DNA of 64,000 nt from Parcubacteria group bacterium (GCA_041661275.1 JBAZUU010000004.1:7480-71479); one strand, 5' to 3'; positions 16,401-62,371 are shown, counted from the first letter of the stretch. Made by a program: numbers and translations. The notes: generated by a model from the sequence alone, not told the origin.

Positions 16401-17047
16401 CAGTTGTCAGTGAAATCGACGGGAAGGTTTTGGAAATTGAAAATGTCGACAAAAATATTATTGTCAAAATTGAAGCGACTGACAAAAACAAGACAATCAA
16501 AGAATATCAACTTCCAGCTGGAACAACGGTCAAGGTGGCCACTGGTGATTTGGTCGGAAAGGGATCGCAACTCAATGAAGGTCACATCGATCTTAAAAAA
16601 TATTATAAGATCACTGGCTGGGAAGAAGTTTGTCGCTATATCATTCGGGAAATTCAGGAAGTGTATGCATCACAAGGTGAAGGTATCAACGACAAACATA
16701 TTGAAATTATCATTCGTCAGATGTTTTCTCGCATTAATATTTTGACCGAAGGCGATAGTAATTTCTTGGTTGGCGACATCACAGAAATAGACGAATTTAA
16801 TGAAGAAAACACTCGCGTCAAAGAGCGAAATGGCGAAATGGCCAAAGGTGAAAAAATGCTTCTTGGAATCACCAAAGTGGCTCTTTCCACTGAAAGTTTC
16901 CTCTCTGCGGCGTCTTTCATGGAAACCGCCCGCGTGCTCATCAATGCGGCTGTTGCCGGCAAAGAAGACAAGCTGCGCGGTCTCAAAGAAAACGTCATCA
17001 TCGGAAAACTTATTCCAGCAGGGACAGGGTTTCGGAATATAAAGTAG
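13457..17047 (+). CDS. rpoC: DNA-directed RNA polymerase subunit beta'
   Basis: 1196 aa; zinc-binding CYCGKYKRIRYKGIVCDKCGVEV, catalytic NADFDGDQMAVH, and a conserved C-terminus. Confidence 0.95.
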   Translation: MESISNTKISDFDSVRLKLASPEEILTWSHGEVTKPETINYRTQRYEKDGLFDERIFGPSRDWECYCGKYKRIRYKGIVCDKCGVEVTRSIVRRERMGHIKLATPVSHIWFLRGVPSKIGLALGMGVQDLERVIYFSSYIVHNVDEEQRERVMNQLDTEFKTKQKEIAKNFGANEKELKEKTEELKGAYKTLKDELKSLHRLKIISEVEYFNLSTRFGQVFTAGIGAESIRKILEGIDLKKEVDTLKKELLKEEVSDKKKILKRIKLFKGFINAGLHLEWMLPIAIPVIPPDLRPMVALDGGRFATSDLNDLYRRIINRNNRLKKLIEIGAPEVITRNEKRMLQEAVDALFDNSARRSQVSVAASTGQRRALRSLADTLKGKQGRFRQNLLGKRVDYSGRSVIVVGPKLKLHQCGIPKKMGLELFKPFIINKLIERELAYNVRSAGKMVEAEAEEAYDILDEIISHHYVLLNRAPTLHRLSIQAFQPVLIEGKAIQIHPMVCSAFNADFDGDQMAVHVPLTDKARWESGNLMLSAKNLLKPASGDPITTPTLDMVLGCYYITHISPNAKGEGKMFSTYEEAIMACELGHVDIRAKIKVLHDNEVLETSIGRIKLNLIMPEGFEYINHEMTKKELKVLVARVLELKGQEEAAQFVDRIKDLGFESVTNSGISWGMDDLIVPAGKKDIMIEAEKQVETVKKQYNMGLLTEEERKDKVIEIWNDSKNKITDLVRAGMDKEGPVYSMVYSKARGSESVVVQMSGMKGLMAGPTGETIELPVKSSFKEGLNVLEYFISTHGARKGMADTALRTATAGYLTRRLVDVAQDVIVREKDCHDKNGAFMYKEDSDRIGQSFAARIIGRVLLEDAVDPKTGEVVAAKGDMISKIQGEQIEKANMDKLKVRSIITCKTARGVCQKCYGMDLGRGHLVEIGQAVGIVAAQAIGEPGTQLTMRTFHIGGVAGTDITQGLPRVEEIFEARPPKGESVVSEIDGKVLEIENVDKNIIVKIEATDKNKTIKEYQLPAGTTVKVATGDLVGKGSQLNEGHIDLKKYYKITGWEEVCRYIIREIQEVYASQGEGINDKHIEIIIRQMFSRINILTEGDSNFLVGDITEIDEFNEENTRVKERNGEMAKGEKMLLGITKVALSTESFLSAASFMETARVLINAAVAGKEDKLRGLKENVIIGKLIPAGTGFRNIK
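16989..17047 (+). repeat. 59-bp direct repeat, copy 1 (the last 17 codons plus stop of rpoC)
   Basis: identical to 18326-18384: aaaacgtcatcatcggaaaacttattccagcagggacagggtttcggaatataaagtag. Confidence 0.9.
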
Positions 17048-17084
17048 ATTTTAGCTGTTAGCTTATAGCTTTTAGGATAGAAAA

Positions 17085-17184: not shown

Positions 17185-18318
17185 ATGAATTATATCCCAA
17201 GATTAATAACAAGTTCCATAGAAAATCGCTTATTTAAGGGAAAAGTCATAATTATCTATGGTGCCAGACAAGTTGGAAAGACCACTTTGGTCAAGAAAAT
17301 TTTAGAAAAATACAGTTCAAGTGGCGATTATTTGAACTGTGAGTTATTATCCGTCCGAAAAGGGCTTTCGGAACCGGAAGCGGTCAAGTTGAAAAAGTTT
17401 CTTGGAAATTATAAAATCATTGTTCTGGATGAAGCTCAAAACATTCCCAATATTGGATTAATTCTCAAAATAATTGTAGATACTTACCCAGAACTGCAGA
17501 TTATTGCTACCGGCTCATCCAGTTTTGATTTAGCGCAAAAAATTTCCGAACCCATGACAGGAAGAACCTTTACTTTTATGCTTTATCCAATTTCGTTAAG
17601 AGAAATTAGACAAAAAGAAAATTTAATCGAAGTAGAGGCAAAACTGGAAAGTTTGTTAAGATTTGGAAGTTACCCGGAAATACTGACTCTAAGTGAAGGT
17701 GAATCCAAGGAGCGTCTCAACGAAATCGCGTCCAAATATTTATATAAAGATATTTTAAGTTTCGAAGGTCTTAAGAAGGCTGATGTTATAAGAAATCTTC
17801 TGGAACTTTTGGCTCTTCAGTTGGGCAATGAAGTTTCTTATAATGAATTGGCCACAAAACTTGGAATTGATCGGTTAACCGTTCTAAAATATATAAATAT
17901 CTTGGAACAATCATTTGTTGTTTTTCGTCTAAGGGCTTTCAGTCGAAATCTTCGAAAAGAGATATCCAAATCGGTTAAAATATATTTTTATGATTTGGGC
18001 GTCAGAAACAGTATAATTGAAAGCTATAACCGGCTAGATGTAAGAAACGACACTGGAGCGTTGTGGGAAAATTTTTGTATCGTGGAAAGAAAGAAAAATA
18101 ACGAAAGCGATTTCCGATTTGTGAATTCATATTTTTGGCGCACATATGATCAAAAAGAAATTGATTATATCGAAGAAAAAGACGGCCAACTTCGTGGATT
18201 TGAATTTAAATGGAACGCGAAAAAGGACATAAAATTACCAAAAGAGTTTATAAAAAGCTACAACGCGACGGTGGAAAAAGTTGATCCGGAAAATTATTGG
18301 AAGTTTTTGAAACTATAA
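17185..18318 (+). CDS. AAA+ ATPase with a C-terminal DUF4143 domain
   Basis: Walker A GARQVGKTT; Walker B IVLDEAQ; C-terminal region typical of DUF4143 proteins. Confidence 0.75.
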   Translation: MNYIPRLITSSIENRLFKGKVIIIYGARQVGKTTLVKKILEKYSSSGDYLNCELLSVRKGLSEPEAVKLKKFLGNYKIIVLDEAQNIPNIGLILKIIVDTYPELQIIATGSSSFDLAQKISEPMTGRTFTFMLYPISLREIRQKENLIEVEAKLESLLRFGSYPEILTLSEGESKERLNEIASKYLYKDILSFEGLKKADVIRNLLELLALQLGNEVSYNELATKLGIDRLTVLKYINILEQSFVVFRLRAFSRNLRKEISKSVKIYFYDLGVRNSIIESYNRLDVRNDTGALWENFCIVERKKNNESDFRFVNSYFWRTYDQKEIDYIEEKDGQLRGFEFKWNAKKDIKLPKEFIKSYNATVEKVDPENYWKFLKL

Positions 18319-18325
18319 CGCGCAA

Positions 18326-18384
18326 AAAACGTCATCATCGGAAAACTTATTCCAGCAGGGACAGGGTTTCGGAATATAAAGTAG
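18326..18384 (+). repeat. 59-bp direct repeat, copy 2 (a non-coding duplicate of the rpoC 3' end)
   Basis: exact copy of 16989-17047; followed by its own hairpin/T-run at 18386-18416. Confidence 0.9.
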
Positions 18385-18460
18385 CTTTTATGGAAAAAAC
18401 GACTTGGCTTATCGTCAGGTCGTTTTTGTTTTGTAGAGTAGTAGTTGACTACAATTCCTT

Positions 18461-30567: not shown

Positions 30568-30677
30568 CTCTACGAATTACGAATTGGTACGAATGTAACG
30601 AAATACGAATAATCGTTAATAAGGACAATTTAAAAAATCAATCGTTCGTACATTCGTAAAGGTTCGTATTTCGTAGA
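30568..30677. repeat. 110-bp palindromic element of family B (tctacgaattacgaa...ttcgtatttcgtaga) between rpsL and rpsG
   Basis: long inverted repeat; near-identical copy at 43631-43742. Confidence 0.8.
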
Positions 30678-30695
30678 GAAATAATTTAAACAAAC

Positions 30696-38504: not shown

Positions 38505-38565
38505 CGCGTAGCGTCATCCTGAGCGGAGTCCTGCTGAAAAGCAGGACGAAGTCGAAGGATCTAGT
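38505..38565. repeat. family A hairpin element, short form (half-unit), between rplW and rplB
   Basis: atgacgcgtagcgtcat palindrome + cgtcatcctgagcg + tcctgctgaaaagcagga hairpin + gaagtcgaaggatct. Confidence 0.8.
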
Positions 38566-42041: not shown

Positions 42042-42096
42042 TCGTCATCCTGAGCGAAGTCCTGCTGAAAAGCAGGATGAAGTCGAAGGATCTATA
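42032..42096. repeat. family A hairpin element, short form, between rpsQ and rplN
   Basis: tgacgacgtagtcgtca palindrome + cgtcatcctgagcgaagtcctgctgaaaagcaggatgaagtcgaaggatct; nearly identical to 38505-38565. Confidence 0.8.
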
Positions 42097-42469: not shown

Positions 42470-42470
42470 T

Positions 42471-42552
42471 CTTTACTAATTACTAATTTTGTAAGAATAT
42501 ACCGATTGCGAATAAAGATTAGTATATTAGTATAAGATTCGTAATTAGTAAA
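42471..42552. repeat. family C palindromic element (ctttactaattactaatt ... aattagtaaag) between rplN and rplX
   Basis: near-identical copy at 44176-44262. Confidence 0.75.
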
Positions 42553-42572
42553 GAATAATTCATATTAAATTC

Positions 42573-43630: not shown

Positions 43631-43742
43631 TCTACGAATTACGAATTAGTACGAATGTAACGAAATACGAATAGTAGTAAATGTGACAAAAGTTAAATTC
43701 AATTATTGTTCGTACATTCGTAAAGGTTCGTAATTCGTAGAC
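43631..43742. repeat. 112-bp palindromic element of family B between rpsN and rpsH
   Basis: arms identical to 30568-30677 with a different loop. Confidence 0.8.
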
Positions 43743-43769
43743 CAAGAGATTAAATTAAACTAATCAAAT

Positions 43770-44175: not shown

Positions 44176-44262
44176 TCTTTACTAATTACTAATTTTGTAC
44201 GAATATACCAATTACGAATAAAAAAATTAGTATATTAGTATAAGATTCGTAATTAGTAAAGA
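44176..44262. repeat. family C palindromic element between rpsH and rplF
   Basis: copy of 42471-42552. Confidence 0.75.
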
Positions 44263-44291
44263 AAGAAATTAACTAAAAATCAGGAAATTAT

Positions 44292-48293: not shown

Positions 48294-48436
48294 CCCGTCA
48301 TTCTGAGCGAAATGACGACGACGTTAGTCGGAGGAATGAAGTCGAAGAATCTGCCAAAAGTTAGCACTGGTGGTAATTTATAGTAGATCCTTCGACTACG
48401 TCCAATAAGAATTGGACTTCGCTCAGGATGACGTAT
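48294..48436. repeat. family A element, full-length (about 140-bp inverted duplication), between adk and map
   Basis: left arm cgtcattctgagcg...gaagtcgaagaatct; right arm agatccttcgactacgt...cgctcaggatgacg. Confidence 0.85.
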
Positions 48437-49202: not shown

Positions 49203-49341
49203 CCGTCATTCTGAGCGGAATCGAGTCCGTTAGGACGAGATGAAGTCGAAGAATCTGCCAAAGGTTAGCACTTGTGGTAAATTATAGTAGATCCTTCGAC
49301 TACGTTCGGATAAAATCCTCACTACGCTCAGGATGACGGGA
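49203..49341. repeat. family A element, full-length
   Basis: central region nearly identical to 48294-48436 (gccaaaggttagcacttgtggtaaattatagta). Confidence 0.85.
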
Positions 49342-50380: not shown

Positions 50381-50516
50381 CACCGTCATTCCGAGCGGAA
50401 TCCGCTTTAAGCGGATGAAGTCGAAGAATCTGCTAATTAATATTACTAGTGCTATTTGTAAGTAGATCCTTCGACTTCGTTCGGATAAAATCCTCACTTC
50501 GCTCAGGATGACGGGC
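50381..50516. repeat. family A element, full-length
   Basis: same arms as the other full-length copies; loop differs. Confidence 0.85.
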
Positions 50517-53914: not shown

Positions 53915-54781
53915 ATGATAACTTCAGTCAAAGAAATATTAACTAAAGCCAGAGAAGGTGGTTATGCCGTCGGGGCTTTTAATACGGTCAACTTGGAAAC
54001 AACGCGTGCCATCGTTGAAGCGGCGCAGGAAATGAGATCGCCGGTCATCATTCAGATCACCGAGAAAACTATGGAATATGCCGGAGGACGGCTCATATAC
54101 CATTTAGTTAAGAATGACGCGGAATTCTATGCTCCGGAAATTCCCATTGGCATTCATCTGGATCATGGAAGGAGTTTTGAAATAATCCAACGGGCTGTTG
54201 CTATCGGTTTCACATCCGTCATGTATGACGGATCAAGAAAAAAATATGAGGATAATTTGGAGATTACCAAAAAGGTAGTTGATTTTTGCAAGGAAAAGGG
54301 CGTTAATGTTCAGGCGGAACTAGGGAGTGTGCCATATCTTGGTGAAATGGGAATGGGGGAAGTAAATTGGGAAGAATATATGACCGATCCTGGTCAAGCC
54401 AGTGCTTTTGTCAAAGAAACCGGAATTGATGCGTTGGCAGTGGCTATCGGCAACGCTCATGACTTTTTCAAAGAAAAAGAAGTCCCTGATTATGCCAGAC
54501 TGGAAATGATAAACAAAAATTGCGGGAATCTTCCACTTATCCTTCATGGGGCATCAGACTGGGAAAATGGGCGGGTAAAAGAAGTAATAAACCGAGGAGT
54601 GGCTTGTTTTAATGTGGACACGGCTATCCGGTTGTCTTTTATAAATAATCTTATCAATTCAGTCCGGAATCAGGGCAATGTATCCTTTGATATCAGAAAG
54701 CTCCTGGGGGAATCGAGAGATGCTGTGAAAGATATAGTGAAGAAAAAAATAAAGTTTTTTGGAAGTGACGGAAAAATATGA
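53915..54781 (+). CDS. fba: class II fructose-bisphosphate aldolase
   Basis: GGYAVGAFN..., IHLDHG, ILHGASD motifs. Confidence 0.8.
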   Translation: MITSVKEILTKAREGGYAVGAFNTVNLETTRAIVEAAQEMRSPVIIQITEKTMEYAGGRLIYHLVKNDAEFYAPEIPIGIHLDHGRSFEIIQRAVAIGFTSVMYDGSRKKYEDNLEITKKVVDFCKEKGVNVQAELGSVPYLGEMGMGEVNWEEYMTDPGQASAFVKETGIDALAVAIGNAHDFFKEKEVPDYARLEMINKNCGNLPLILHGASDWENGRVKEVINRGVACFNVDTAIRLSFINNLINSVRNQGNVSFDIRKLLGESRDAVKDIVKKKIKFFGSDGKI

Positions 54782-55221
54782 TGACGGTTGAGAAAATATT
54801 ATTAGAGTTTGATCCAGAAATAAAAAATCTTCTGCCGGCGCTGAAAAAGATCAGCGCTGGTTTTGGCTATATCTCACAAAATGACGCCCAAAAATTGGCT
54901 GAATATTTTTCTGTCCCACTTTCTCGCGTTTTTGAAACGGCATCTTTTTATGATGAGATAAAAACTAAAAAGCAACCCGACCTGGTTATTCAAGTATGTT
55001 CCAGTGTCAATTGCGCAGTGAGTAAGTCTTTTGAAATAGTGAGTAAAATAGAAGATTATTTTAAGATAAAGGCGGGAGACGAGTTTGATCAGAAAGTAAG
55101 ATTGGAAGTGATGAGTTGCTTGGGGCAGTGCGGGGAAGGGCCGGTAGTGGTTGTTAATGATAAAGTATATACTAATGTGACAAAAAGTTCGGTGGCGGGG
55201 GTTTTGGAAGAGTGGGCATAG
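54778..55221 (+). CDS. hoxE: NuoE/HoxE-like [2Fe-2S] thioredoxin-fold subunit
   Basis: CSSVNC...C...CLGQCGEGP cysteine pattern; 4-bp overlap with the fba stop. Confidence 0.6.
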   Translation: MMTVEKILLEFDPEIKNLLPALKKISAGFGYISQNDAQKLAEYFSVPLSRVFETASFYDEIKTKKQPDLVIQVCSSVNCAVSKSFEIVSKIEDYFKIKAGDEFDQKVRLEVMSCLGQCGEGPVVVVNDKVYTNVTKSSVAGVLEEWA

Positions 55222-55358
55222 CGTCGTCATTCTGAGCGGAATGAGACCTTTGGTCGAATGAAGTCGAAGAATCTACCAAATAATATTACCGGTGATAATT
55301 CCTGGTAGATCCTTCGACTACGTCCCAATAAGAATTGGGACTTCGCTCAGGATGACGG
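55222..55358. repeat. family A element, full-length, between hoxE and hoxF
   Basis: arms identical to the other copies. Confidence 0.85.
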
Positions 55359-55377
55359 TTTTTTGTTAAATTATTAA

Positions 55378-56607
55378 ATGAATAATACTAAAATAATCAC
55401 TAAACACTGGGGTCGGATAAATCCTCTCAAAATCGAGGACTATGTTGCTATTGGCGGATATAAAGCTCTTAAAAAATATATCCGCGATATGGATGCGGAA
55501 AGGGCGATAGGAGAAATAAAAAAATCCGGACTTTGCGGAAGGGGTGGGGCAGGTTTTCCGACAGGCAATAAATTGGAAATAGTAGCGGAAAAAAACGGAA
55601 CGAAATATTTTATCTGTAATTTGGACGAATCAGAGCCGGGAACATACAAAGATCGGGCGATTGTTGATAATAATCCACACAGTTTGATTGAGGGAATAAT
55701 AATTTCAGCGCTTATTATTGGAGCAAAAAGGGCGATTATATATATTAATGGTCGATATATCAAACAGAAAGAAATATTGGAGATAGCCGTAGAACAAGCA
55801 GGAAAATATAATTTTCTAGGCAAAGGAATAATTGGATCTTGTTATGACCTGGGGATAGAGATATTTTCCGGCGCTGGCGCTTATATTTGTGGAGAAGAGA
55901 CAGCTCTCATTAATTCCATTGAAGGCAATCGTGGCGAACCGAAATCCCGTCCACCATATCCGACAGACGCGGGGCTTTTTGGAAAACCAACGGTTATCAA
56001 TAATGCGGAAACTATAGTAAATATTCCCTGGATAATAACGAACGGCGGGGAAAAATATGCTGATTCGGGCGGGGAAAAATTATATATCTTAGGCGGAAGC
56101 GTAAAAAAACCCGGGGTTTATGAGGGTTCAGTGGGAATAACTATTCGCCAAGCGATAGAAAAAATGGGCGGGGGATTAAAAAAAGGAAAAGAATTCTGGT
56201 TTGCGCAAATTGGTGGCGCGTCAGGAAGATTAATTTTAGGAAATGAATTGGATTGTGTGTTAGATTACGATCGGGTGTCTGCAGAGACGCCCCGACGGGG
56301 CGTCTCTATAATGCCAATCGGTTCCGGTTCTATCTTGGTCATTGATAAAACTGTCGACATAAAAGATCTGCTATTATCCTGGACAACATTTTTTCGCTAT
56401 GAATCATGCGGAAAATGCGTACCATGTCGCGAAGGGACATTTCGACTGTGGGAAATAGCCAAACGGATGCAAGACGGAGAAATCACCGAACGCGATCAAA
56501 AAGCCATTCCGGAAATCATTTGGACATTGCAGAATACGACATTTTGTCCTCTGGGCAAATTCGCCGCGACAGCATTTTCGGATGTAATGGAAAAAAAGTT
56601 AATATAG
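55378..56607 (+). CDS. hoxF: NuoF/HoxF-like NAD(H)-binding FMN / 4Fe-4S subunit
   Basis: GRGGAGFPTG FMN site and ESCGKCVPCREG 4Fe-4S motif. Confidence 0.8.
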   Translation: MNNTKIITKHWGRINPLKIEDYVAIGGYKALKKYIRDMDAERAIGEIKKSGLCGRGGAGFPTGNKLEIVAEKNGTKYFICNLDESEPGTYKDRAIVDNNPHSLIEGIIISALIIGAKRAIIYINGRYIKQKEILEIAVEQAGKYNFLGKGIIGSCYDLGIEIFSGAGAYICGEETALINSIEGNRGEPKSRPPYPTDAGLFGKPTVINNAETIVNIPWIITNGGEKYADSGGEKLYILGGSVKKPGVYEGSVGITIRQAIEKMGGGLKKGKEFWFAQIGGASGRLILGNELDCVLDYDRVSAETPRRGVSIMPIGSGSILVIDKTVDIKDLLLSWTTFFRYESCGKCVPCREGTFRLWEIAKRMQDGEITERDQKAIPEIIWTLQNTTFCPLGKFAATAFSDVMEKKLI

Positions 56608-56630
56608 GTCATATTCGTTGTATAAGACAT

Positions 56631-57647
56631 ATGGAAATATTAATCAACAAAAAAGCTTACCAAGCGCAGGAAGGAGAAATGATTCTCGATGTTTGTCGGC
56701 GGGAAAATATCAGAATCCCAACTCTTTGTGCGTTTGAAGGTTTACCAAAAGAAGCAGTTTGCCGACTGTGTCTCGTGGAAATTAATTTGGCGGATAAGCT
56801 TGTTCCGTCTTGCGCTTTTCCAGTTTGTGAAAAGTTAGAAGTGACGACAGAAAGCGAGAAAATAAAAAAAGCGCGAGAAGTAAATCTTGAACTTTTATGG
56901 TCGGATCATGCCGGAAAATGCGTGAAATGCAAGAAAAATCGGATGTGCGAGCTGCAGTCGTTGGCAGAAGAATATAAAATAGATAATTTCCATTTTGTGC
57001 CTCGAAGAGAAGATTTAACCAATGCGGAAGAGTTGGATTTATTGAAAGATAATAAGATAAGAGTAGTAGTGGAAGAGGAAAATCCATGCATTGCTCGGAC
57101 GACAGAATTTTGTGTGGAATGTCGCAGATGTATAAACATTTGTCCAGATAAAGCTTTCGGGTTCAACCATCGTGCTGGGGACGGGGTTGTCGGAACGCCA
57201 TACGAAAAAACGTTAGATTGCAGCTTTTGCGGCGAGTGTGTGCGTGTTTGTCCTGTGGCAGCACTTACTGATAAAAATAATTTTTCTAAGATTATAGAAG
57301 ACTTGGATGATATGAAAAAAATGGCGGTGGCGCTTGTTGCTGAGGGTATGGAAGAAAAAATTAATACGATGCTAAAATATACAGAAATTGCCATTGAGGC
57401 GAAAGAGGTTTTGAAAAAACTGGGCTTTGAAAAAATATTTGATTTTACTGAAAAGGACGATGAAGATGAAGGGCTGGATGAATTTAAGGATCAATTAGCC
57501 AAAAAGGAAAAAATTAATTTGGAAAATATAGTATTGTTTTATATTTCTGATAATATTTCGCTCAAAAAAGAAAAAATAGCCAATCTGGATCATATTTTAA
57601 CTGACAGAGAAGTGGCGAGACTGGCGAGAGATAGGAAAATAATTTAA
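56631..57647 (+). CDS. hoxU: NuoG/HoxU-like iron-sulfur subunit ([2Fe-2S] and [4Fe-4S] clusters)
   Basis: N-terminal 2Fe-2S pattern C...CRLC...C and later CxxCxxC(x)nCP motifs; start taken at ATG 56631 (the track ORF begins inside hoxF). Confidence 0.7.
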   Translation: MEILINKKAYQAQEGEMILDVCRRENIRIPTLCAFEGLPKEAVCRLCLVEINLADKLVPSCAFPVCEKLEVTTESEKIKKAREVNLELLWSDHAGKCVKCKKNRMCELQSLAEEYKIDNFHFVPRREDLTNAEELDLLKDNKIRVVVEEENPCIARTTEFCVECRRCINICPDKAFGFNHRAGDGVVGTPYEKTLDCSFCGECVRVCPVAALTDKNNFSKIIEDLDDMKKMAVALVAEGMEEKINTMLKYTEIAIEAKEVLKKLGFEKIFDFTEKDDEDEGLDEFKDQLAKKEKINLENIVLFYISDNISLKKEKIANLDHILTDREVARLARDRKII

Positions 57648-57711
57648 AAGTACCCTCTCTGTCAGTCGAAGACGACTGACATCTCTCCCGAAGGGAGAGA
57701 GGGAAACGCTT

Positions 57712-57936
57712 ATGTGTTTAACAATTCCCAAAAAAGTAGTAGAAATTACGGGCGATGAGGTTGTCGTAGAACTTCCTAATGGCGATAGACAAACTGTGAA
57801 AAGTATAGTAGATTTAGGTGTCGGCGATTTTTGTTTAACGCAGCAAAATGTCGCAATCTATAAGCTAGACCAAAAAGAAGCTGAAGAAGTCCTGGGGCTT
57901 TTTCAAAATAGGGAGGGAAATAATAATGGACAATAG
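57712..57936 (+). CDS. hypC: HypC/HupF-family hydrogenase maturation chaperone
   Basis: N-terminal MCLTIP (the MC(L/I)(A/G)(I/V)P signature); about 74 aa. Confidence 0.75.
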   Translation: MCLTIPKKVVEITGDEVVVELPNGDRQTVKSIVDLGVGDFCLTQQNVAIYKLDQKEAEEVLGLFQNREGNNNGQ

Positions 57937-58381
57937 CGGACTGAAATTATTATTGTACTTTGGTTACGGCGCTATGCTTAAGGGGCTTTGTAGTGACGGT
58001 GTCAATGAGGATTTTCACCAAAAAGCGCTGAAATATTTTGATGGCGACAGTTCTCTCGAGAACGATATCGCTGACGATGTTTATGTGGAGTTTCCTCATG
58101 CCACTCGGCGATTGATCGAGATGTCCAGAGAGAAGAACATTGATCGGTTCTCTGGAGAAAATGTTCATAGCTACGTCTATGAGATCCATGGACGCGAGGT
58201 CTTGCCGTCATGTGCAGTTCTATCGGGCAGGGTCAAAAATGTCTTTTCTGACAAGAAGATTGTCGAGATTGAACGGGATAAGGAGATTTTTGAGATCAAT
58301 TATCTTCTTTCGCTCGAAAGCACTTTCAGTATCGGCGATGAGGTGTATTTCCATCAAGGATGGCTTATCCCGAAAAAATAG
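57926..58381 (+). CDS. hypothetical protein inside the hydrogenase cluster
   Basis: 151-aa ORF overlapping the hypC end by 11 bp; no recognised family. Confidence 0.4.
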   Translation: MDNSGLKLLLYFGYGAMLKGLCSDGVNEDFHQKALKYFDGDSSLENDIADDVYVEFPHATRRLIEMSREKNIDRFSGENVHSYVYEIHGREVLPSCAVLSGRVKNVFSDKKIVEIERDKEIFEINYLLSLESTFSIGDEVYFHQGWLIPKK

Positions 58382-58454
58382 CACTTGAGCTTAGAAAAGC
58401 GGAGAATGGGAATCTCCGCTTATTTTTTTCCCAAATTTATGATAAAATTAGGAT

Positions 58455-59318
58455 ATGATCAAAAAAATTGCTAAAAAAACAAAAAAAGCTGCAGGTGCAA
58501 AGGTCGCCAAAAAGAAGGTGGCAAATATCAAGGTCGTGGAGAAGGGTAGCCACGAGAAAAAACCAAAAGTGGCTATTATCAGCCTTACGTCTTGTGAGGG
58601 ATGTCAATTCGCGCTTCTTGATTTAGGGCAAAGATTTTTGGATCTGGCGGAGAAAATTGAAATGGTGGATTTTAGGCTTTTGGAAGATGAAGAAGATCCG
58701 GGAATGGATTTGGATTTGGTACTCATAGAGGGCAATCCAGTAACAGAGGATAACATGAAGACGCTTCTGGCGGCCAGAAAAAGATCAAAACTCCTGGCAG
58801 CCCTTGGAAATTGCGCGGCTATGGGTGGGATACCGGAGATTAAAAATTATCAGGAAGGTAAAAATACCATAAAACATGTCTATCGATATTTGCAGGGGAT
58901 ATATAATCCGGAAATAAAAGAAATTGATAATTTTGTTAAAGTGGACTTCATTTTTCCTGGATGCCCGGTTACCGGAGAGGAATTTTTGAAATATATTCCG
59001 GAATTACTCGCGGGTAATATCCCAACCATTCCTGACCAGCCAGTCTGCGTAGAGTGTAAAAAACGTGGCAATCGATGCTTACTCTTAGATAAAAAACCTT
59101 GTTTTGGCCCGATGATTTTGGGCGGGTGCGACGCTGTTTGCCCGACATCGCGTATGATGTGTCAGGGTTGTCGAGGGTTGCGTCCTGGCGGAAATGTGAA
59201 AGCAATGAAAGCGACTCTTAAAACCATGATGAGTGACGCGGAATTTGAAAATACAACGGAAATTTATGGCTTGCGTGATGATATAGAAGAAAGGGAGAGA
59301 AAACAAAGAACAGTGTAA
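58455..59318 (+). CDS. hoxY: [NiFe]-hydrogenase small subunit (HoxY/delta-like) with a Lys-rich N-terminal extension
   Basis: AIISLTSCEGCQ proximal cluster motif; GNCA..GG; C-terminal Cys ligands. Confidence 0.75.
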   Translation: MIKKIAKKTKKAAGAKVAKKKVANIKVVEKGSHEKKPKVAIISLTSCEGCQFALLDLGQRFLDLAEKIEMVDFRLLEDEEDPGMDLDLVLIEGNPVTEDNMKTLLAARKRSKLLAALGNCAAMGGIPEIKNYQEGKNTIKHVYRYLQGIYNPEIKEIDNFVKVDFIFPGCPVTGEEFLKYIPELLAGNIPTIPDQPVCVECKKRGNRCLLLDKKPCFGPMILGGCDAVCPTSRMMCQGCRGLRPGGNVKAMKATLKTMMSDAEFENTTEIYGLRDDIEERERKQRTV

Positions 59319-59328
59319 CCGTAGCCTA

Positions 59329-59380
59329 TTAGAGGTCGGACCTCTAAAGCGTTAAGGCTCATTAGAAATCCGACCTCTAA
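59329..59380. repeat. palindrome ttagaggtcggacctctaa plus a partial second copy (terminator-like) after hoxY
   Basis: perfect 9-bp arms. Confidence 0.5.
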
Positions 59381-59400
59381 GACACGAGTAAATTGCTACT

Positions 59401-60339
59401 ATGAAAAAGTTTTTCCAATACTTAATATTAATCATCCTGATTTCTATATCAGGAATAATCCTTACCAACCGGGAACCCTCTCGCGTTTTTTTTCAGAAAG
59501 TGAGAAGGACGTATATCGAAAAACCATGCACCAAGCCGATAAAATATTCCATCGGCAATGTTGATTCCAGATTCAACATAACGCAAGCCGATCTTCAAAA
59601 TACAATTCTGCAGGCGGAAAATATATGGGAAAAACCGATTGGACGAAATTTATTTGAGTATGATCCAAACTCCCAGTTTAAAATAAATTTGGTTTATGAC
59701 GACCGGCAGGAAAGGACGCAGGAATCAGCGAAGCTGGAAAACACACTTGGGAAACTGGAAAGTTCGCACGAACAAATTATCGGCCAGTATAATAATTTAA
59801 GCAGCGCGTATAAAAAAAGGCTGGATGCCTACAATAAGGCGGCGGCTGACTATGAAAAACAGCTTAAAAAATATAATGACGAAGTGGATTCCTGGAACAA
59901 AAAGGGCGGAGCGCCACCAGACGTGTACGATAATTTGAAAAAAGAAAAAAAAGATTTACAGGATACTTTTTCCACTTTGGAAAAAGAAAGAAAAGTGGTC
60001 AATAGTCTCATCGGCCAGACTAATAATCTGGTAGAACAAGAAAAAAATATTGTTAGCAATTACAATTCCAACCTTTCCAGCTATCAAAATAAATATGGTG
60101 AGCCGGTTCAGTTCGACAAGGGAGTTTATGACGGAACAAAGATCGATATTTTCCAATTCAATGAAATTGGCGATTTGCGCCTGACTATTGCTCACGAATT
60201 TGGCCATGCTTTGGGAATTGACCATCTCGAAAATCCGCAATCACTCATGTATTATCTGATGGGCGAGCAGGATCTATCTAATCCACAACTTTCAACGGAA
60301 GATATCGCGGCACTGAAAGACGTATGCAATACAAAATAG
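59401..60339 (+). CDS. secreted or membrane-anchored zincin metalloprotease (matrixin-like HEFGHALGIDH) with a coiled-coil region
   Basis: N-terminal TM/signal sequence; heptad-rich middle; HExxHxxGxxH zinc motif followed by a Met-turn-like LMYY. Confidence 0.55.
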   Translation: MKKFFQYLILIILISISGIILTNREPSRVFFQKVRRTYIEKPCTKPIKYSIGNVDSRFNITQADLQNTILQAENIWEKPIGRNLFEYDPNSQFKINLVYDDRQERTQESAKLENTLGKLESSHEQIIGQYNNLSSAYKKRLDAYNKAAADYEKQLKKYNDEVDSWNKKGGAPPDVYDNLKKEKKDLQDTFSTLEKERKVVNSLIGQTNNLVEQEKNIVSNYNSNLSSYQNKYGEPVQFDKGVYDGTKIDIFQFNEIGDLRLTIAHEFGHALGIDHLENPQSLMYYLMGEQDLSNPQLSTEDIAALKDVCNTK

Positions 60340-60384
60340 TTTTTTGCCAAAGCCGCTTCCTTATGTTAACGTTAGATTAGAATC

Positions 60385-60702
60385 ATGTGGCTTTTTTTGT
60401 TTGGCTCAAATCTTAGAGGGGGAGGACTAATGTCAAACGGGACAGAAGTCTTTAGTTCTTTTTCGGAATTGCAAAAAAAATGGGGCGCGATTAAGCATAT
60501 GACGTCAGTGTGTCCCAATAATTGCAGGGGGAAAACGATTGAGGAGATTCGTGATGAAATGATAAGTGGCTCTGATTTCGCAATCAGCAAAAAAATACCT
60601 TTCGTCCAGTCAGGGGGAAAAATAACAAGAGCTGATGATAATTGCGAAATTAACCCAGTAGTTCACGAAAGAGTTCTTTTTCTTCTTTTTAAAAGGCCAT
60701 AA
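60385..60702 (+). CDS. hypothetical small protein
   Basis: ORF of 105 aa (or 90 aa from ATG 60430); hairpin/T-run terminator at 60726-60758. Confidence 0.25.
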   Translation: MWLFLFGSNLRGGGLMSNGTEVFSSFSELQKKWGAIKHMTSVCPNNCRGKTIEEIRDEMISGSDFAISKKIPFVQSGGKITRADDNCEINPVVHERVLFLLFKRP

Positions 60703-60834
60703 CCAACAACTGTTTTCTAGGCAGGGGAATCTCATTGGGTTTTCCCTGCTTTTTTATGATATAATAGCTTAAGTGGTTGCTAACAAACTTTTTCGCATTT
60801 TCGTACGTTCGTATTAATTTCGTAGTTCGTAACT

Positions 60835-62094
60835 ATGCATATAAAAATAAATCACATCGCCAAAATGGAAGGACACGCTGGGTTTATGGCGAGTGTTCTT
60901 GGCGGTGATGTAAGATCAGCCAAAATCGAAGTGCAAGAGGGGATCCGGCTTATCGAAGGAATTCTTATTGGACGCCACTATAAAGATATGCCAATTGTCG
61001 CGCAAAGGATTTGCGGGATCTGTCCGGTGGTGCACAATCTCACTGCCATAAAATCCCTGGAAAACGCTATGGGCGTAACCGTTACTGCTGAAACGGAAAA
61101 GCTGCGAACCCTTATGGAACTCGGGCAAATTATCCATTCCCACGCGCTTCATCTTTTTTTCTTGTCCCTGGCTGATTTTTTGGATATCGATAATGATATA
61201 AAACTGGTAAAAAAATATCCCGAAGAAACAAAAGCCGCGGTGAGAATTCGCGAATACGGCATGGAAATCATAAAAATTATTGGCGGACGAGTGGTTCATC
61301 CTCTCACTAATGAGGTGGGCGGATTTAAAAAGGCGCCAGATAAGGAAGAGCTGAAAAAATTATTGAATAATTCCGGAGAAATTTTAAAAACAGCACTGGA
61401 GTTAGGAAAATTTTTCAAGACTATAAAATTGCCGGAATTTTCAAGAGAAACGGAATATATATGCCTCACGAAACAAGGTGAATATGCTGTTTATGGCGGA
61501 GATATCGCGTCATCTTCCGGAAAAATAATTCCAGTTGAGAAATTCGAAAAGGATTTTTCTGAACTGGAGAAGCAGCAAGAAGTGATTAAAAAAGTAGAGC
61601 ATAATGGTCAAAGTTATATGGTAGGGGCAATTGCCAGGGTTAATATCAATAAAAATAAATTACGGGAAAATGCTCACGGATATCTAAATAGTTTAGGCTG
61701 GAAATTTCCCAATTACAACCCATTTAATAATATCCTGGCGCAGATGACCGAAGTCGTCCATTCAGTAGAAGAAAGTCAGCGTATCGTTAGAGAGCTTTTA
61801 AATATGGATCTGGAAAGAGTAGTTACTACGGAATATAAGATTCGTGCCGGAATAGGAGTGGCAGCAGTGGAAGCGCCACGAGGAACGCTATACTATCATG
61901 TAGAGGTGGATGACAAAGGCTATGTCAAAAACGTCAATATCATCACGCCAACCGCGCAATTTCTGGCTAATCTCGAAGATGACATCGCCGAATATATTCC
62001 CAAAATTATGGGATTGGGAGACAGTGAAAGACAAAGAAAACTGCGCGGATTTATCCGGGCATACGACCCGTGTATAAGTTGCGCTGTGCACTAA
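60835..62094 (+). CDS. hoxH: [NiFe]-hydrogenase large subunit (HoxH-like) ending exactly at the terminal His of DPCxxCxxH
   Basis: N-terminal RICGICPVVH and C-terminal DPCISCAVH-stop nickel-ligand motifs. Confidence 0.85.
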   Translation: MHIKINHIAKMEGHAGFMASVLGGDVRSAKIEVQEGIRLIEGILIGRHYKDMPIVAQRICGICPVVHNLTAIKSLENAMGVTVTAETEKLRTLMELGQIIHSHALHLFFLSLADFLDIDNDIKLVKKYPEETKAAVRIREYGMEIIKIIGGRVVHPLTNEVGGFKKAPDKEELKKLLNNSGEILKTALELGKFFKTIKLPEFSRETEYICLTKQGEYAVYGGDIASSSGKIIPVEKFEKDFSELEKQQEVIKKVEHNGQSYMVGAIARVNINKNKLRENAHGYLNSLGWKFPNYNPFNNILAQMTEVVHSVEESQRIVRELLNMDLERVVTTEYKIRAGIGVAAVEAPRGTLYYHVEVDDKGYVKNVNIITPTAQFLANLEDDIAEYIPKIMGLGDSERQRKLRGFIRAYDPCISCAVH

Positions 62095-62098
62095 AATT

Positions 62099-62371
62099 AT
62101 GCATGATTTTATGTTAGCCAAGGAAATAATAGGCAAACTTAGTGAGGTTGCCTTCAGTAAAAAACTTTCTCGCATCAAGAAAGTCTATGTTGAAATTGGG
62201 CAGATCACTATGGCTCATGATGATCATCCGGAACATACAGAAGATATTTCCATCGAAAACCTGCAATTTGGCCTGAAAAGTATTGCTAAAGATGGAATTT
62301 TCAAAAATACGGAGTTTTTTATTACCAAAGTGCCGGGCGACAATTGGAAAATAGTGGATATCGAAGTATAA
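62099..62371 (+). CDS. HypA-like protein lacking the zinc-finger CxxC pairs (N-terminal metal-binding domain only)
   Basis: starts MHDFMLAKEII... like the HypA MHE motif and helix, but has no cysteines. Confidence 0.4.
   Translation: MHDFMLAKEIIGKLSEVAFSKKLSRIKKVYVEIGQITMAHDDHPEHTEDISIENLQFGLKSIAKDGIFKNTEFFITKVPGDNWKIVDIEV

What the first reader, a model, noticed from the sequence alone, without database searches (positions are those of the whole stretch)
54778..62371. Unusual NAD-linked [NiFe]-hydrogenase cluster: HoxH without a C-terminal propeptide, a matrixin-like metalloprotease between hoxY and hoxH, an unknown 151-aa gene and a cysteine-less HypA
The order is hoxE - (family A element) - hoxF - hoxU - hypC - ORF151 - hoxY - metalloprotease - ORF - hoxH - hypA-like. 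HoxH terminates exactly at the His of DPCISCAVH, so no endopeptidase-cleaved extension exists and no HoxW/HycI-type protease gene is present. Instead a secreted or membrane-anchored, coiled-coil zincin (HEFGHALGIDH) is encoded between the small- and large-subunit genes. The HypA-like protein has the N-terminal MH(D/E) helix but no CxxC zinc site. ORF 57926..58381 has no recognisable family and may be a new maturation or assembly factor.
Basis: partly seen in the sequence, partly recalled or inferred. Interest (0 to 1): 0.6.

Follow-up and report, generated by a model that had tools for sequence, protein, structure and literature searches.

The report
Streamlined CPR [NiFe]-hydrogenase gene cluster
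This is the cytoplasmic hydrogen-producing enzyme cluster typical of Moranbacteria (tiny uncultured CPR bacteria): its odd features are real and conserved, they point to a pared-down way of building the enzyme without the usual final protease cut, and the metalloprotease gene in the middle is most likely an unrelated passenger.

Summary
The window is from a Candidatus Moranbacteria (CPR) genome. The catalytic subunits are group-3b type (closest to Pyrococcus sulfhydrogenase), not Hox/3d type. They are joined to a NuoEFG/HoxEFU-like NADH module and sit between glycolysis genes.

The large subunit ends at the His of DPCISCAVH in all 120 closest homologues. Across 96 large subunits in fetched loci, 26 of 26 without an extension lack a HycI/HybD-type endopeptidase nearby. 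Fifty of 70 with an extension have one adjacent. The extension has been lost several times within group 3b.

The 90-aa protein is a HypA nickel-binding domain without the zinc domain, conserved across CPR. ORF151 is a real gene (dN/dS about 0.10) with a C-terminal HypC-like domain. The adjacent HypC carries Gln in place of the conserved His51.

The M10 zincin is strongly conserved in many Moranbacteria clusters. However, it is absent from others, has an N-terminal membrane anchor, and has relatives in unrelated contexts, so it is probably a passenger.

hypD, hypE, hypF and hypB are not in the window. Purifying selection as strong as on glycolytic genes argues that the enzyme works. This is a new variant of a known kind, of moderate interest.

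The parts
54778..55221 (+). HoxE/NuoE-like thioredoxin-like [2Fe-2S] subunit (147 aa)
   Evidence: Pfam 2Fe-2S_thioredx, E 2.3e-32. NCBIfam nuoE_fam and HoxE hits fall below their equivalog cut-offs.
55225..55360 (.).
   Evidence: A four-copy family at 48335, 49239, 50414 and 55257. The alignment shows conserved terminal and internal inverted repeats. The RNA fold is -65.8 kcal/mol, z = -9.9. No Rfam match.
55378..56607 (+). HoxF/NuoF-like FMN- and NAD(H)-binding subunit (409 aa)
   Evidence: Pfam Complex1_51K, SLBB and NADH_4Fe-4S. NCBIfam nuoF_fam scores 414 bits.
56631..57647 (+). HoxU/NuoG-N-terminal-like FeS subunit (338 aa). The true start is MEILINKK, not the upstream ATG at 56406.
   Evidence: Pfam Fer2_4, NADH-G_4Fe-4S_3 and Fer4_7. 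Best NCBIfam match is the N-terminal FeS region of [FeFe] hydrogenase group A6 at 187 bits; HoxU scores 122 bits. The gene is called at 338 aa in L004.
57712..57936 (+). HypC chaperone, variant type: Cys2 is present but the conserved His51 is replaced by Gln (…GDFCLTQQNVAI…)
   Evidence: Pfam HupF_HypC scores 47 bits against a cut-off of 28.5. The alignments show the His-to-Gln type only in clusters that lack hypD/E/F. The role of His51 is described in PMC9002611.
57926..58381 (+). ORF151: helical N-terminal half (about aa 1-90) plus a HypC-like beta-barrel (aa 96-150). A lineage-restricted HypC paralogue.
   Evidence: The only database hit is itself, plus one 90%-identical variant. dN/dS is 0.098 against L162. 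hhalign to HypC gives probability 63%, E 6.9e-5, with Cys96 aligned to Cys2. An iterated HypC-domain profile scores E 5.9e-12 and 45 bits, equal to the genuine HypC of the window. The AF2 model has low confidence (pLDDT 50.6) and shows 5 helices plus 5 strands. Foldseek top hits include HypC entries 3vyt, 2z1c and 3vys.
58397..58421 (+). Terminator-like hairpin with a T-run, followed by a -10-like box upstream of the small-subunit gene
   Evidence: Consensus scan. The 73-nt spacer is 70/73 identical to L162, whereas the flanking coding DNA is 81-88% identical.
58455..59318 (+). Small subunit, 3b (HyhS/delta) type, 287 aa, with a Lys-rich N-terminal tail and extra C-terminal Cys motifs
   Evidence: Pfam Oxidored_q6. 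Best NCBIfam matches are sulfhydrogenase delta ShyD and HydD at 145 and 141 bits. dN/dS is 0.06.
59401..60339 (+). Membrane-anchored matrixin-like (M10) zincin with a coiled-coil insertion of about 130 aa (312 aa)
   Evidence: Pfam Peptidase_M10 scores 42.2 bits against a cut-off of 24. The HEFGHALGIDH motif and SLMYY Met-turn are present. An N-terminal hydrophobic segment is found in 97 of 119 family members. dN/dS is 0.045.
60430..60702 (+). Small ORF (90 aa) with a GGAGG ribosome-binding site and two conserved Cys; function unknown
   Evidence: Sequence. It is 40% identical over the aligned residues to an 87-aa ORF in the same position in L093. It is called at 90 aa in L004. No family hit.
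60724..60745 (+). Terminator-like hairpin with a T-run between the small ORF and the large-subunit gene
   Evidence: Consensus scan and sequence.
60835..62094 (+). [NiFe] large subunit, 3b (HyhL/alpha) type, 419 aa. It ends at the His of DPCISCAVH with no extension.
   Evidence: Pfam NiFeSe_Hases. NCBIfam sulfhyd_HydA and ShyA score 249 and 245 bits. Best PDB match is P. furiosus SHI alpha. The L1 motif RICGICPVVH and the L2 motif DPCISCAVH are present. All 120 homologues end the same way. dN/dS is 0.03.
62099..62371 (+). Mini-HypA: the nickel-binding domain only (90 aa), with an MHD N-terminus, no Cys, and a His-rich loop AHDDHPEH
   Evidence: Pfam HypA scores 28.0 bits against a cut-off of 28.9. 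MHD, H46 and E48 are invariant in 9 CPR homologues. A profile built from them hits canonical Zn-containing HypA proteins and PDB 3A43. The AF2 model has pLDDT 85.6. The top 14 Foldseek hits are all HypA structures, TM 0.65-0.81.

Best explanation
**What it is.** This is the standard cytoplasmic [NiFe]-hydrogenase locus of a Candidatus Moranbacteria (CPR/Patescibacteria) bacterium. It pairs a group-3b-type catalytic dimer (large and small subunit) with a NuoE/F/G-like (HoxEFU-like) flavin/FeS NADH module, in place of the usual 3b beta/gamma subunits.

**Likely role (inferred).** The locus lies between triose-phosphate isomerase/aldolase and GAPDH. It most likely re-oxidises glycolytic NAD(P)H by making H2, and the reaction is reversible.

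**Maturation (partly shown, partly inferred).** Maturation appears streamlined. The large subunit is made in its final length, so no endopeptidase step is needed. This matches what is known for sensor, Ech and CO-linked hydrogenases. Nickel would be delivered by a one-domain HypA that has no zinc module. Iron-cofactor hand-over would involve a variant HypC (His51 to Gln) plus a HypC-domain paralogue (ORF151). The canonical hypC-D-E-F set is inferred to lie elsewhere in the genome.

**The M10 zincin.** It is a membrane-anchored, probably extracytoplasmic surface protease. It was inserted between the subunit genes in an ancestor of many Moranbacteria and has been retained as a passenger. It is not a maturation protease.
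For: **Identity and class.** establish the subunit types. HydDB classed a Moranbacteria enzyme as group 3b (PMC5037454).

**Missing extension.** It is absent in all 120 closest homologues and in 42 of 150 representatives of 50%-identity clusters. Among 96 large subunits in fetched loci, 26 of 26 with no tail have no HycI/HybD-type gene in the locus. Of the 70 with a tail, 50 have one adjacent. No such gene is found in the window. A rough NJ tree shows about 6 separate clades without a tail, one of which is the whole CPR group. Reviews accept hydrogenases that need no processing, but list only groups 2b, 2d, 4c and 4e (PMC12134894; PMC7654741).

**Mini-HypA.**

**HypC variant and HypC-domain paralogue.**

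**The enzyme is functional.** dN/dS is 0.03-0.07 for the hydrogenase subunits (0.15 for HoxE), comparable to 0.03 for GAPDH and aldolase.

**Glycolytic embedding is conserved.** It is seen in Moranbacteria and in Komeilibacteria.

**Module swap.** Komeilibacteria locus L009 has the classical beta/gamma genes in the position where Moranbacteria have hoxEFU-like genes.

**M10 as a passenger.**
- It is present between the subunit genes in about 9 distinct cluster lineages. It is absent from L008, L009, L102, L108 and L147. In L006, hypC-D-E-F occupy that position.
- The same spacer also hosts a HAD hydrolase and a small ORF.
- Homologues at 41% identity lie beside pheT and glycosyltransferases, or beside dnaK/dnaJ.
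- The N-terminal hydrophobic anchor is conserved across the family.

**Stand-alone hyp clusters exist.** hypC-D-E-F clusters with no hydrogenase genes nearby are found in related metagenomic contigs L137-L142.
Against: - hypD, hypE, hypF and hypB were not found in the 64-kb window. The rest of the genome could not be searched, so a complete maturation pathway is inferred, not shown.
- M10 is under strong purifying selection (dN/dS 0.045). It is tightly packed between the subunit genes, overlapping the small-subunit stop in L090, and this holds across lineages whose large subunits are only 74% identical. That degree of retention would also fit a functional link.
- Its membrane topology was judged only from flanking charges. 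For this particular protein the C-terminal flank is the more positive one, so a cytoplasmic catalytic domain is not excluded.
- Terminator-like hairpins after ORF151 and after the small ORF suggest three transcription units. This weakens simple operon arguments in either direction.
- The direction of catalysis and the cofactor (NADH or NADPH; sulfur reduction; bifurcation) are inferred from domain content only.
Confidence: 0.7

Rival explanations
1. The M10 zincin is a working part of the hydrogenase system. It might be a replacement processing or quality-control protease acting on a subunit, or a factor co-regulated with H2 metabolism at the cell surface.
For: - It lies between the small- and large-subunit genes in both cluster types: those with and those without hypDEF.
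- At least 20 homologue clusters share a contig length with a large-subunit homologue.
- dN/dS is 0.045.
- It overlaps the small-subunit stop by 4 nt in L090.
- The C-terminal flank of the membrane segment is more positive in this protein.
Against: - There is no C-terminal extension to cleave.
- Sister clusters with large subunits 66-75% identical lack it (L008, L102, L108, L006). Their large-subunit genes are intact and full length and end in the same motif.
- Its presence does not correlate with the Lys-rich N-terminal tail of the small subunit.
- Family members at 41% identity sit in unrelated housekeeping contexts.
- The family-wide charge bias favours an outside-facing domain.
- Other unrelated genes (a HAD hydrolase, hyp genes) occupy the same spacer.
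Confidence: 0.1
2. The cluster is a decaying or non-catalytic paralogue, because the Fe(CN)2CO-building genes hypD/E/F and the gene hypB are missing.
For: - No hypD/E/F or G3E-type hypB is found in the window.
- Many relatives carry hypC-D-E-F inside the cluster.
- The HypC here has lost the His51 that supports binding to HypD.
Against: - All four active-site Cys and both motifs are intact.
- dN/dS is 0.03-0.07 for the hydrogenase subunits (0.15 for HoxE), comparable to 0.03 for GAPDH and aldolase.
- The same hypDEF-less layout is conserved in L008, L090, L092 and L093.
- Stand-alone hypC-D-E-F loci exist in related contigs.
Confidence: 0.05
3. The enzyme is not a simple NADH-linked H2-evolving hydrogenase. 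It could instead be a sulfhydrogenase (polysulfide reducing) or an electron-bifurcating complex, as has been proposed for other CPR 3b enzymes.
For: - Its closest characterised relatives are the Pyrococcus sulfhydrogenases.
- A paper on Berkelbacteria and Moranbacteria proposes bifurcating 3b enzymes (PMC10811913).
- The HoxU-like subunit best matches the FeS region of the NADH-dependent [FeFe] hydrogenase group A6.
Against: - The HoxF-like subunit is a minimal, 409-aa NuoF-type protein in which no domains beyond the NuoF set were detected.
- The locus is embedded in glycolysis genes, which fits redox balancing.
- No sulfur-metabolism genes are adjacent.
Confidence: 0.15

Closest known systems
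Group 3b [NiFe]-hydrogenase (Pyrococcus furiosus sulfhydrogenase I, Thermococcus kodakarensis Hyh; HyhBGSL)
   Same: The large and small subunits are closest to these enzymes (223 and 216 bits; NCBIfam HydA/ShyA and HydD/ShyD). They have the same L1/L2 Cys motifs, a cytoplasmic location, and a small subunit with additional C-terminal Cys motifs.
   Different: There is no 4-10-residue C-terminal tail and no linked HycI/HybD-type endopeptidase. The beta/gamma diaphorase is replaced by NuoE/F/G-like subunits. HypA has no zinc domain.
Group 3d NAD-coupled bidirectional hydrogenase (HoxEFUYH plus HoxW)
   Same: The diaphorase has the same domain content (2Fe-2S NuoE-like, FMN/NAD NuoF-like, NuoG-N-terminal-like) and the same gene order E-F-U…Y…H.
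   Different: The catalytic subunits are not HoxH/HoxY: 131 bits against the 3d structure 5XF9, versus 223 bits against a 3b enzyme. The small subunit best matches 3b delta subunits and carries extra C-terminal Cys motifs. There is no HoxW and no propeptide.
Naturally extension-less [NiFe]-hydrogenases (H2 sensors of groups 2b/2d, CO-linked 4c, Ech 4e)
   Same: The large subunit ends at the conserved His/Arg and no processing protease is encoded (PMC12134894; PMC7654741).
   Different: Those enzymes belong to other groups. Group 3b is not on the published lists, although 26 of 96 3b-like large subunits sampled here lack the tail.
HypA nickel metallochaperone (T. kodakarensis 3A43, H. pylori 6G81)
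   Same: It has the N-terminal M-H-(D/E) nickel motif and the nickel-binding-domain fold (TM 0.65-0.81, rmsd 1.2-1.9 Å).
   Different: The whole zinc-finger domain (two CxxC motifs) is missing and is replaced by a few residues. A His-rich loop is inserted. No HypB is found nearby.
HypC-family chaperone paralogues (HybG, HupF, HoxL)
   Same: A second HypC-type protein is encoded next to the structural genes. ORF151 has a HypC-like beta-barrel that includes the GD-x-V-x-x-H-x-G motif.
   Different: ORF151 carries a helical extension of about 95 aa in front, so the Cys is internal. The genuine HypC beside it has Gln in place of His51. In relatives, the same slot holds proteins of about 220-260 aa with a HypC domain, or a DUF6390 protein.
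Matrixin/M10 metzincins
   Same: The HExxHxxGxxH zinc site and the Met-turn are present, and the Pfam M10 match is above the cut-off.
   Different: It has an N-terminal membrane anchor, a coiled-coil insertion of about 130 residues inside the catalytic domain, and no PRCGxPD cysteine-switch propeptide. The family was seen here only in Patescibacteria.

Membership tests
Group 3b [NiFe]-hydrogenase | Large subunit with the N-terminal RxCGxC and C-terminal DPCxxCxxH nickel-binding motifs | tested here: met
   RICGICPVVH and DPCISCAVH are present. These positions are invariant in alignment A1.
Group 3b [NiFe]-hydrogenase | Catalytic subunits closest in sequence to characterised 3b enzymes | tested here: met
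   PDB: P. furiosus SHI alpha scores 222.7 bits and T. kodakarensis HyhL 215.9 bits. MvhA scores 176 bits and the 3d HoxH 131 bits. NCBIfam HydA/ShyA and HydD/ShyD are the top hits.
Group 3b [NiFe]-hydrogenase | Beta (FeS) and gamma (FAD/NAD(P), 2Fe-2S) diaphorase subunits | tested here: not met
   The window encodes NuoE/F/G-like proteins instead. The Komeilibacteria relative L009 does carry Fer4_22 and FAD/NAD-binding subunits.
Group 3b [NiFe]-hydrogenase | Formal assignment by the HydDB classifier or a curated phylogeny | not testable with these tools
   HydDB is not available here. The HydDB paper lists a Moranbacteria enzyme as group 3b. The NJ tree is only rough.
Group 3d (HoxEFUYH) hydrogenase | HoxE, HoxF and HoxU diaphorase subunits | tested here: inconclusive
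   The domain architecture fits. However, the NCBIfam HoxE model scores 82 bits against a cut-off of 224, and HoxU scores 122 against 333, both far below the cut-offs.
Group 3d (HoxEFUYH) hydrogenase | HoxH-type large subunit and a short HoxY small subunit, with the HoxW protease | tested here: not met
   The 3d HoxH structure 5XF9 scores only 131 bits. The small subunit is 287 aa and best matches sulfhydrogenase delta. No endopeptidase is present.
HycI/HybD/HoxW maturation endopeptidase | A gene of this family in or near the cluster | tested here: not met
   The iterated profile finds 50 copies adjacent to tail-bearing large subunits in other loci. It finds none in the window or in any CPR locus.
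HypA | N-terminal Met-His-Glu/Asp nickel-binding motif | tested here: met
   MHD is invariant in 9 CPR homologues.
HypA | Fold of the nickel-binding domain | tested here: met
   The AF2 model has pLDDT 85.6. The top 14 Foldseek PDB hits are all HypA, with E down to 3.7e-4 and TM 0.65-0.81.
HypA | Zinc site made of two CxxC motifs | tested here: not met
   There is no Cys in the protein or in any of the 9 homologues.
HypA | Score above the curated family cut-off | tested here: not met
   Pfam scores 28.0 against a cut-off of 28.9. NCBIfam scores 30.5 against 146.
HypC/HupF family (gene 57712-57936) | N-terminal Cys2 and a family score above the cut-off | tested here: met
   The protein starts MCLTIP…. 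Pfam scores 47 bits against a cut-off of 28.5.
HypC/HupF family (gene 57712-57936) | Conserved His51 (E. coli numbering), which supports binding to HypD | tested here: not met
   The position is Gln (…LTQQNV…) in the window, L008, L090, L092, L093 and L162. It is His in all hypD-linked HypC proteins. The role of His51 is described in PMC9002611.
HypC/HupF family (ORF151, 57926-58381) | HypC-type OB-fold domain detectable by profile or fold comparison | tested here: inconclusive
   There is no Pfam hit. hhalign gives probability 63%. The iterated profile gives E 5.9e-12 in a small database. Foldseek hits to HypC have E about 0.02, from a low-confidence model.
HypC/HupF family (ORF151, 57926-58381) | Cys at the free N-terminus | tested here: not met
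   The aligned Cys is residue 96, so it is internal.
Matrixin (peptidase M10) | HExxHxxGxxH zinc site, Met-turn, and a Pfam score above the cut-off | tested here: met
   HEFGHALGIDH…SLMYY is present. PF00413 scores 42.2 bits against a cut-off of 24. The motif is found in 99 of 119 homologues.
Matrixin (peptidase M10) | Cysteine-switch propeptide (PRCGxPD) | tested here: not met
   The motif is absent from the sequence. The only Cys near the N-terminus is in KPCTKP, just after the membrane segment.

The most novel reading that the evidence does not exclude
CPR bacteria mature their group-3b hydrogenase by a distinct minimal route. There is no C-terminal processing. Nickel is inserted by a zinc-less, single-domain HypA acting without HypB. 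The iron cofactor is handed over by a His51-to-Gln HypC working with a fast-evolving HypC-domain partner (ORF151, or the 220-260-aa and DUF6390 proteins found in the same slot in relatives). If so, extension-less 3b enzymes would be a natural, compact model for protease-independent [NiFe] assembly.
Probability: 0.3. Interest if true: 0.65.

Novelty: new variant of a known kind. Interest (0 to 1): 0.45.

Why it matters
CPR bacteria are thought to depend on fermentation, and this hydrogenase is one of their few redox outlets. Three points would interest hydrogenase specialists.

1. A large, recurrent set of group-3b enzymes lacks both the assembly peptide and its protease. Current reviews list only groups 2b, 2d, 4c and 4e as exceptions.
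2. A HypA reduced to its nickel domain is conserved across CPR classes, and it also turns up in Planctomycetes and Pseudomonadota 3b clusters.
3. A 3b catalytic core has been re-wired to a complex-I-type NADH module.

Together these define a compact gene set that could be expressed heterologously to test which maturation steps are dispensable. The zincin, the most eye-catching item, is probably irrelevant to the enzyme.

Tried and rejected
- **ORF151 as a degenerate HycI-type endopeptidase (it is of similar size).** Rejected. The iterated endopeptidase profile gives no hit at E <= 10. The predicted structure is helices followed by a beta-barrel, not the alpha/beta/alpha fold of those proteases.
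- **ORF151 as a remnant of deleted hypD/E/F or of the 314-aa or AAA genes of L001.** Rejected. tblastn finds no similarity.
- **ORF151 as a member of the slot family of relatives.** BLASTP against L008_238 finds nothing. hhalign against the four-member slot alignment gives only 5% probability. BLASTP against the DUF6390 protein gives E 0.007. The link rests on the HypC-domain profile.
- **hypD/E/F/B in the window.** None found.
- **Tracing hypD in the same metagenome by a metagenome scan.** The 68 loci returned come from other metagenomes. They were useful only for cluster layouts.
- **M10 linked to the Lys-rich N-terminal tail of the small subunit.** No correlation.
- **Exact-sequence look-up of the large subunit.** It failed because public gene calls start at an internal Met, giving 402 aa.
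- **Rfam scan of 47-64 kb.** No hits.
- **AlphaFold-database fold search to find more mini-HypA proteins.** The library was unavailable.
- **Literature.** Searches found no paper on DUF6390 and none describing an extension-less 3b enzyme or CPR hydrogenase maturation; a search for a zinc-less HypA and the one paper checked turned up no such description.

Full report
**Observation.** The ORF map, Pfam and NCBIfam scans confirm the described order on the + strand:
- NuoE/HoxE-like 2Fe-2S protein, 54778-55221
- NuoF/HoxF-like protein, 55378-56607
- NuoG-N-terminal/HoxU-like protein; the true start is 56631, giving 338 aa as called in an identical public copy
- HypC, 57712-57936
- ORF151, 57926-58381
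- small subunit, 58455-59318
- matrixin-like zincin, 59401-60339
- a small ORF
- large subunit, 60835-62094
- a 90-aa HypA-like protein, 62099-62371

The large subunit ends ...DPCISCAVH-TAA. The cluster proteins are 100% identical (tblastn) in two independent assemblies. The 156-nt gap between hoxE and hoxF holds one copy of a four-member palindromic repeat family. It folds into a very stable structure (-65.8 kcal/mol, z = -9.9).

**Origin and class.** The closest large-subunit homologues (72-92% identity) are all from Candidatus Moranbacteria / Parcubacteria MAGs. The best solved relatives are P. furiosus sulfhydrogenase I alpha (222.7 bits) and T. kodakarensis HyhL (215.9 bits). The 3d HoxH of Hydrogenophilus scores 130.9 bits. 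The small subunit best matches sulfhydrogenase delta subunits. The catalytic dimer is therefore 3b-type, in line with HydDB's assignment of a Moranbacteria enzyme. The diaphorase is NuoEFG/HoxEFU-like. A Komeilibacteria relative (L009, 51% identity) has the classical 3b beta and gamma genes in the same place. Moranbacteria therefore appear to have swapped the NAD(P)H module. In both lineages the locus is embedded in glycolysis genes: TIM and aldolase upstream and GAPDH downstream here; PGK, enolase and iPGM in L009. This fits re-oxidation of glycolytic reducing equivalents, but that role is an inference.

**No propeptide, no protease.**
- All 120 closest homologues end at the His.
- Among the best 150 representatives of 50%-identity clusters, 42 end at the His. 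Most of the rest carry tails of 4-24 residues.
- I built an iterated HycI/HybD profile and scanned 96 large-subunit genes in fetched loci. All 26 without a tail had no endopeptidase gene in the locus. Of the 70 with a tail, 50 had one immediately adjacent and 4 had one elsewhere in the locus.
- The profile finds nothing in the whole window.
- A rough NJ tree puts all CPR sequences in one tail-less clade. It shows about five further tail-less clades: Archaeoglobales, Coriobacteriia, a Desulfobacterota/Nitrospirota group, Dehalococcoidales, and Aerophobetes/Thermodesulfovibrionales.

Hydrogenases that need no processing are accepted for groups 2b, 2d, 4c and 4e (PMC12134894; PMC7654741). Group 3b is not on those lists. 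The trait is real, conserved and recurrent. It is not an error or a sign of decay.

**Mini-HypA.** The 90-aa protein has an invariant MHD start, invariant H46 and E48, a His-rich loop, and no cysteine in any of nine CPR homologues. A profile of these hits canonical zinc-containing HypA proteins in other loci and hits only T. kodakarensis HypA in the PDB. The single-sequence AlphaFold model is confident (pLDDT 85.6). Its top 14 Foldseek hits are all HypA structures (TM 0.65-0.81), followed by a sharp drop in score. It is the HypA nickel-binding domain with the zinc domain deleted. Canonical HypA genes in the comparison loci sit next to HypB, but no G3E-type HypB is near any mini-HypA. Two other Cys-less HypA-like proteins of about 90 aa turned up beside endopeptidase genes in Planctomycetes and Pseudomonadota 3b clusters. 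The form is therefore not confined to CPR.

**HypC and ORF151.**
- Moranbacteria clusters come in two layouts. The common one has hoxEFU-hypC-hypD-hypE-(hypF fragment)-…-small-[M10]-large. The window's layout, shared with L008, L090, L092 and L093, has no hypD/E/F. Its HypC has the conserved His51 replaced by Gln. His51 supports binding to HypD (PMC9002611).
- In this second layout, the slot between hypC and the small-subunit gene holds a fast-evolving protein. In L008, L090, L093 and Komeilibacteria L009 it is a 220-260-aa protein with a HypC-type domain. In L092 it is a DUF6390 protein. In the window it is ORF151.
- ORF151 has only one database relative, which is 90% identical. Against that relative, dN/dS is 0.098, so it is a real gene.
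- Residues 96-150 align to HypC 2-52, with Cys96 on Cys2 (hhalign probability 63%). An iterated HypC-domain profile scores ORF151 as well as the window's genuine HypC (E 5.9e-12 against 1.1e-11).
- The low-confidence model shows five helices followed by a five-strand barrel. Its best PDB matches include several HypC entries.
- I read ORF151 as a HypC paralogue with a helical N-terminal extension. A role in cofactor hand-over is inferred only.

**The zincin.**
- It is a bona fide M10-type metzincin with a coiled-coil insertion and an N-terminal hydrophobic segment. That segment is conserved in 97 of 119 family members.
- It lies between the subunit genes in about nine distinct cluster lineages of both layouts. 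It is strongly constrained, with dN/dS 0.045.
- It is absent from L008, L009, L102, L108 and L147. In L006, hyp genes occupy that position. The same spacer also carries a HAD hydrolase and a small ORF in L093.
- Family members at 41% identity sit beside pheT and glycosyltransferases, or beside dnaK/dnaJ.
- There is no tail to cleave, and its presence does not track the variable Lys-rich N-terminus of the small subunit.
- Flanking-charge statistics favour an outside-facing domain for the family, though not clearly for this protein.
- The best reading is a surface protease carried as a passenger in a very syntenic region. A functional link keeps about 10% probability.

**Is the enzyme functional?** hypD/E/F/B are not in the window, and the rest of the genome could not be reached. 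Against decay: dN/dS values versus two relatives are 0.03-0.04 for the large subunit, 0.06 for the small subunit, 0.07-0.10 for HoxF and HoxU, and 0.03-0.10 for mini-HypA. GAPDH and aldolase give 0.03-0.07. Synonymous sites are near saturation, so the ratios are approximate. Stand-alone hypC-D-E-F loci exist in related contigs, so a separate hyp locus is the likely arrangement.

**Transcription signals.** Terminator-like hairpins follow ORF151 (58397-58421) and the 90-aa ORF (60724-60745). The spacer between ORF151 and the small-subunit gene is 70/73 identical to a relative whose coding DNA is only 81-88% identical. That suggests a conserved regulatory element. These are consensus matches, not proof of function.

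**Verdict.** The locus is the lineage-typical CPR 3b hydrogenase, with a swapped NADH module and a reduced, protease-independent maturation set. The zincin is most likely irrelevant to it. I found no paper describing extension-less 3b enzymes, zinc-less HypA or the HypC(Gln)/HypC-domain pair. This is a new variant of a known kind, of moderate interest.

Noticed in passing
window 48335-48436, 49239-49340, 50414-50515, 55257-55358 (related ends at 38512-38563 and 42043-42094): A family of intergenic palindromic elements of about 125 nt. They have conserved terminal (CGTCATCCTGAGCG…CGCTCAGGATGACG) and internal inverted repeats. The hoxE-hoxF copy folds at -65.8 kcal/mol (z -9.9). No Rfam match.
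   Followed up: partly
window 30569-30690 / 43631-43754, and 42470-42555 / 44176-44263: Two further families of AT-rich, 'TACGAAT/TAGTAA'-type inverted-repeat elements in intergenic regions (repeat families D5-D8 and I2-I7).
   Followed up: no
window 16989-17053 and 18326-18390, flanking the ORF at 17185-18318: A 65-nt direct repeat (98% identical) duplicates the 3' end of the long ORF 13457-17047. It brackets a 377-aa AAA_14/DUF4143 ATPase gene, which looks like an insertion with a target duplication.
   Followed up: partly
window 58455-58560; loci L001, L092, L093, L095, L111: The small subunit carries a Lys-rich, low-complexity N-terminal tail. Its length varies from about 0 to about 130 residues between close relatives. 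It does not correlate with the presence of M10.
   Followed up: partly
L001 4590-5705 (-), L006 8826-9938 (-), and many loci in L094-L152: In Moranbacteria hyp clusters, HypF is a protein of about 370 aa in which Pfam detects only the Kae1-like C-terminal domains. It is encoded on the opposite strand.
   Followed up: no
L001 11283-11657, L006 11283-11657, L102, L108, L123: In many relatives a desulfoferrodoxin (superoxide reductase) gene sits between the large-subunit gene and the mini-HypA gene. It is absent from the window.
   Followed up: no
window 58382-58454 versus L162 700-772: The spacer between ORF151 and the small-subunit gene (hairpin plus a -10-like box) is 70/73 identical between two lineages whose flanking coding DNA is 81-88% identical.
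   Followed up: partly
L064 2186-2467 (Planctomycetes), L079 5953-6231 (Pseudomonadota): Cys-less HypA-like proteins of about 90 aa also occur just after the endopeptidase gene in canonical, tail-bearing 3b clusters outside CPR.
   Followed up: partly
window 57926-58381 versus L093 6202-6906 and L092 7388-8107: The gene in the slot between hypC and the small-subunit gene is replaced between close relatives. It is the 151-aa ORF here, an unrelated-looking 234-aa protein at 92% large-subunit identity, and a DUF6390 protein plus an EamA transporter at 85%. The neighbouring genes stay 71-92% identical.
   Followed up: partly
window 60430-60702; L093 9595-9858: A small ORF of about 90 aa with a strong GGAGG site and two conserved Cys. 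It is shared only with the closest relative (40% identity) and matches no family.
   Followed up: partly
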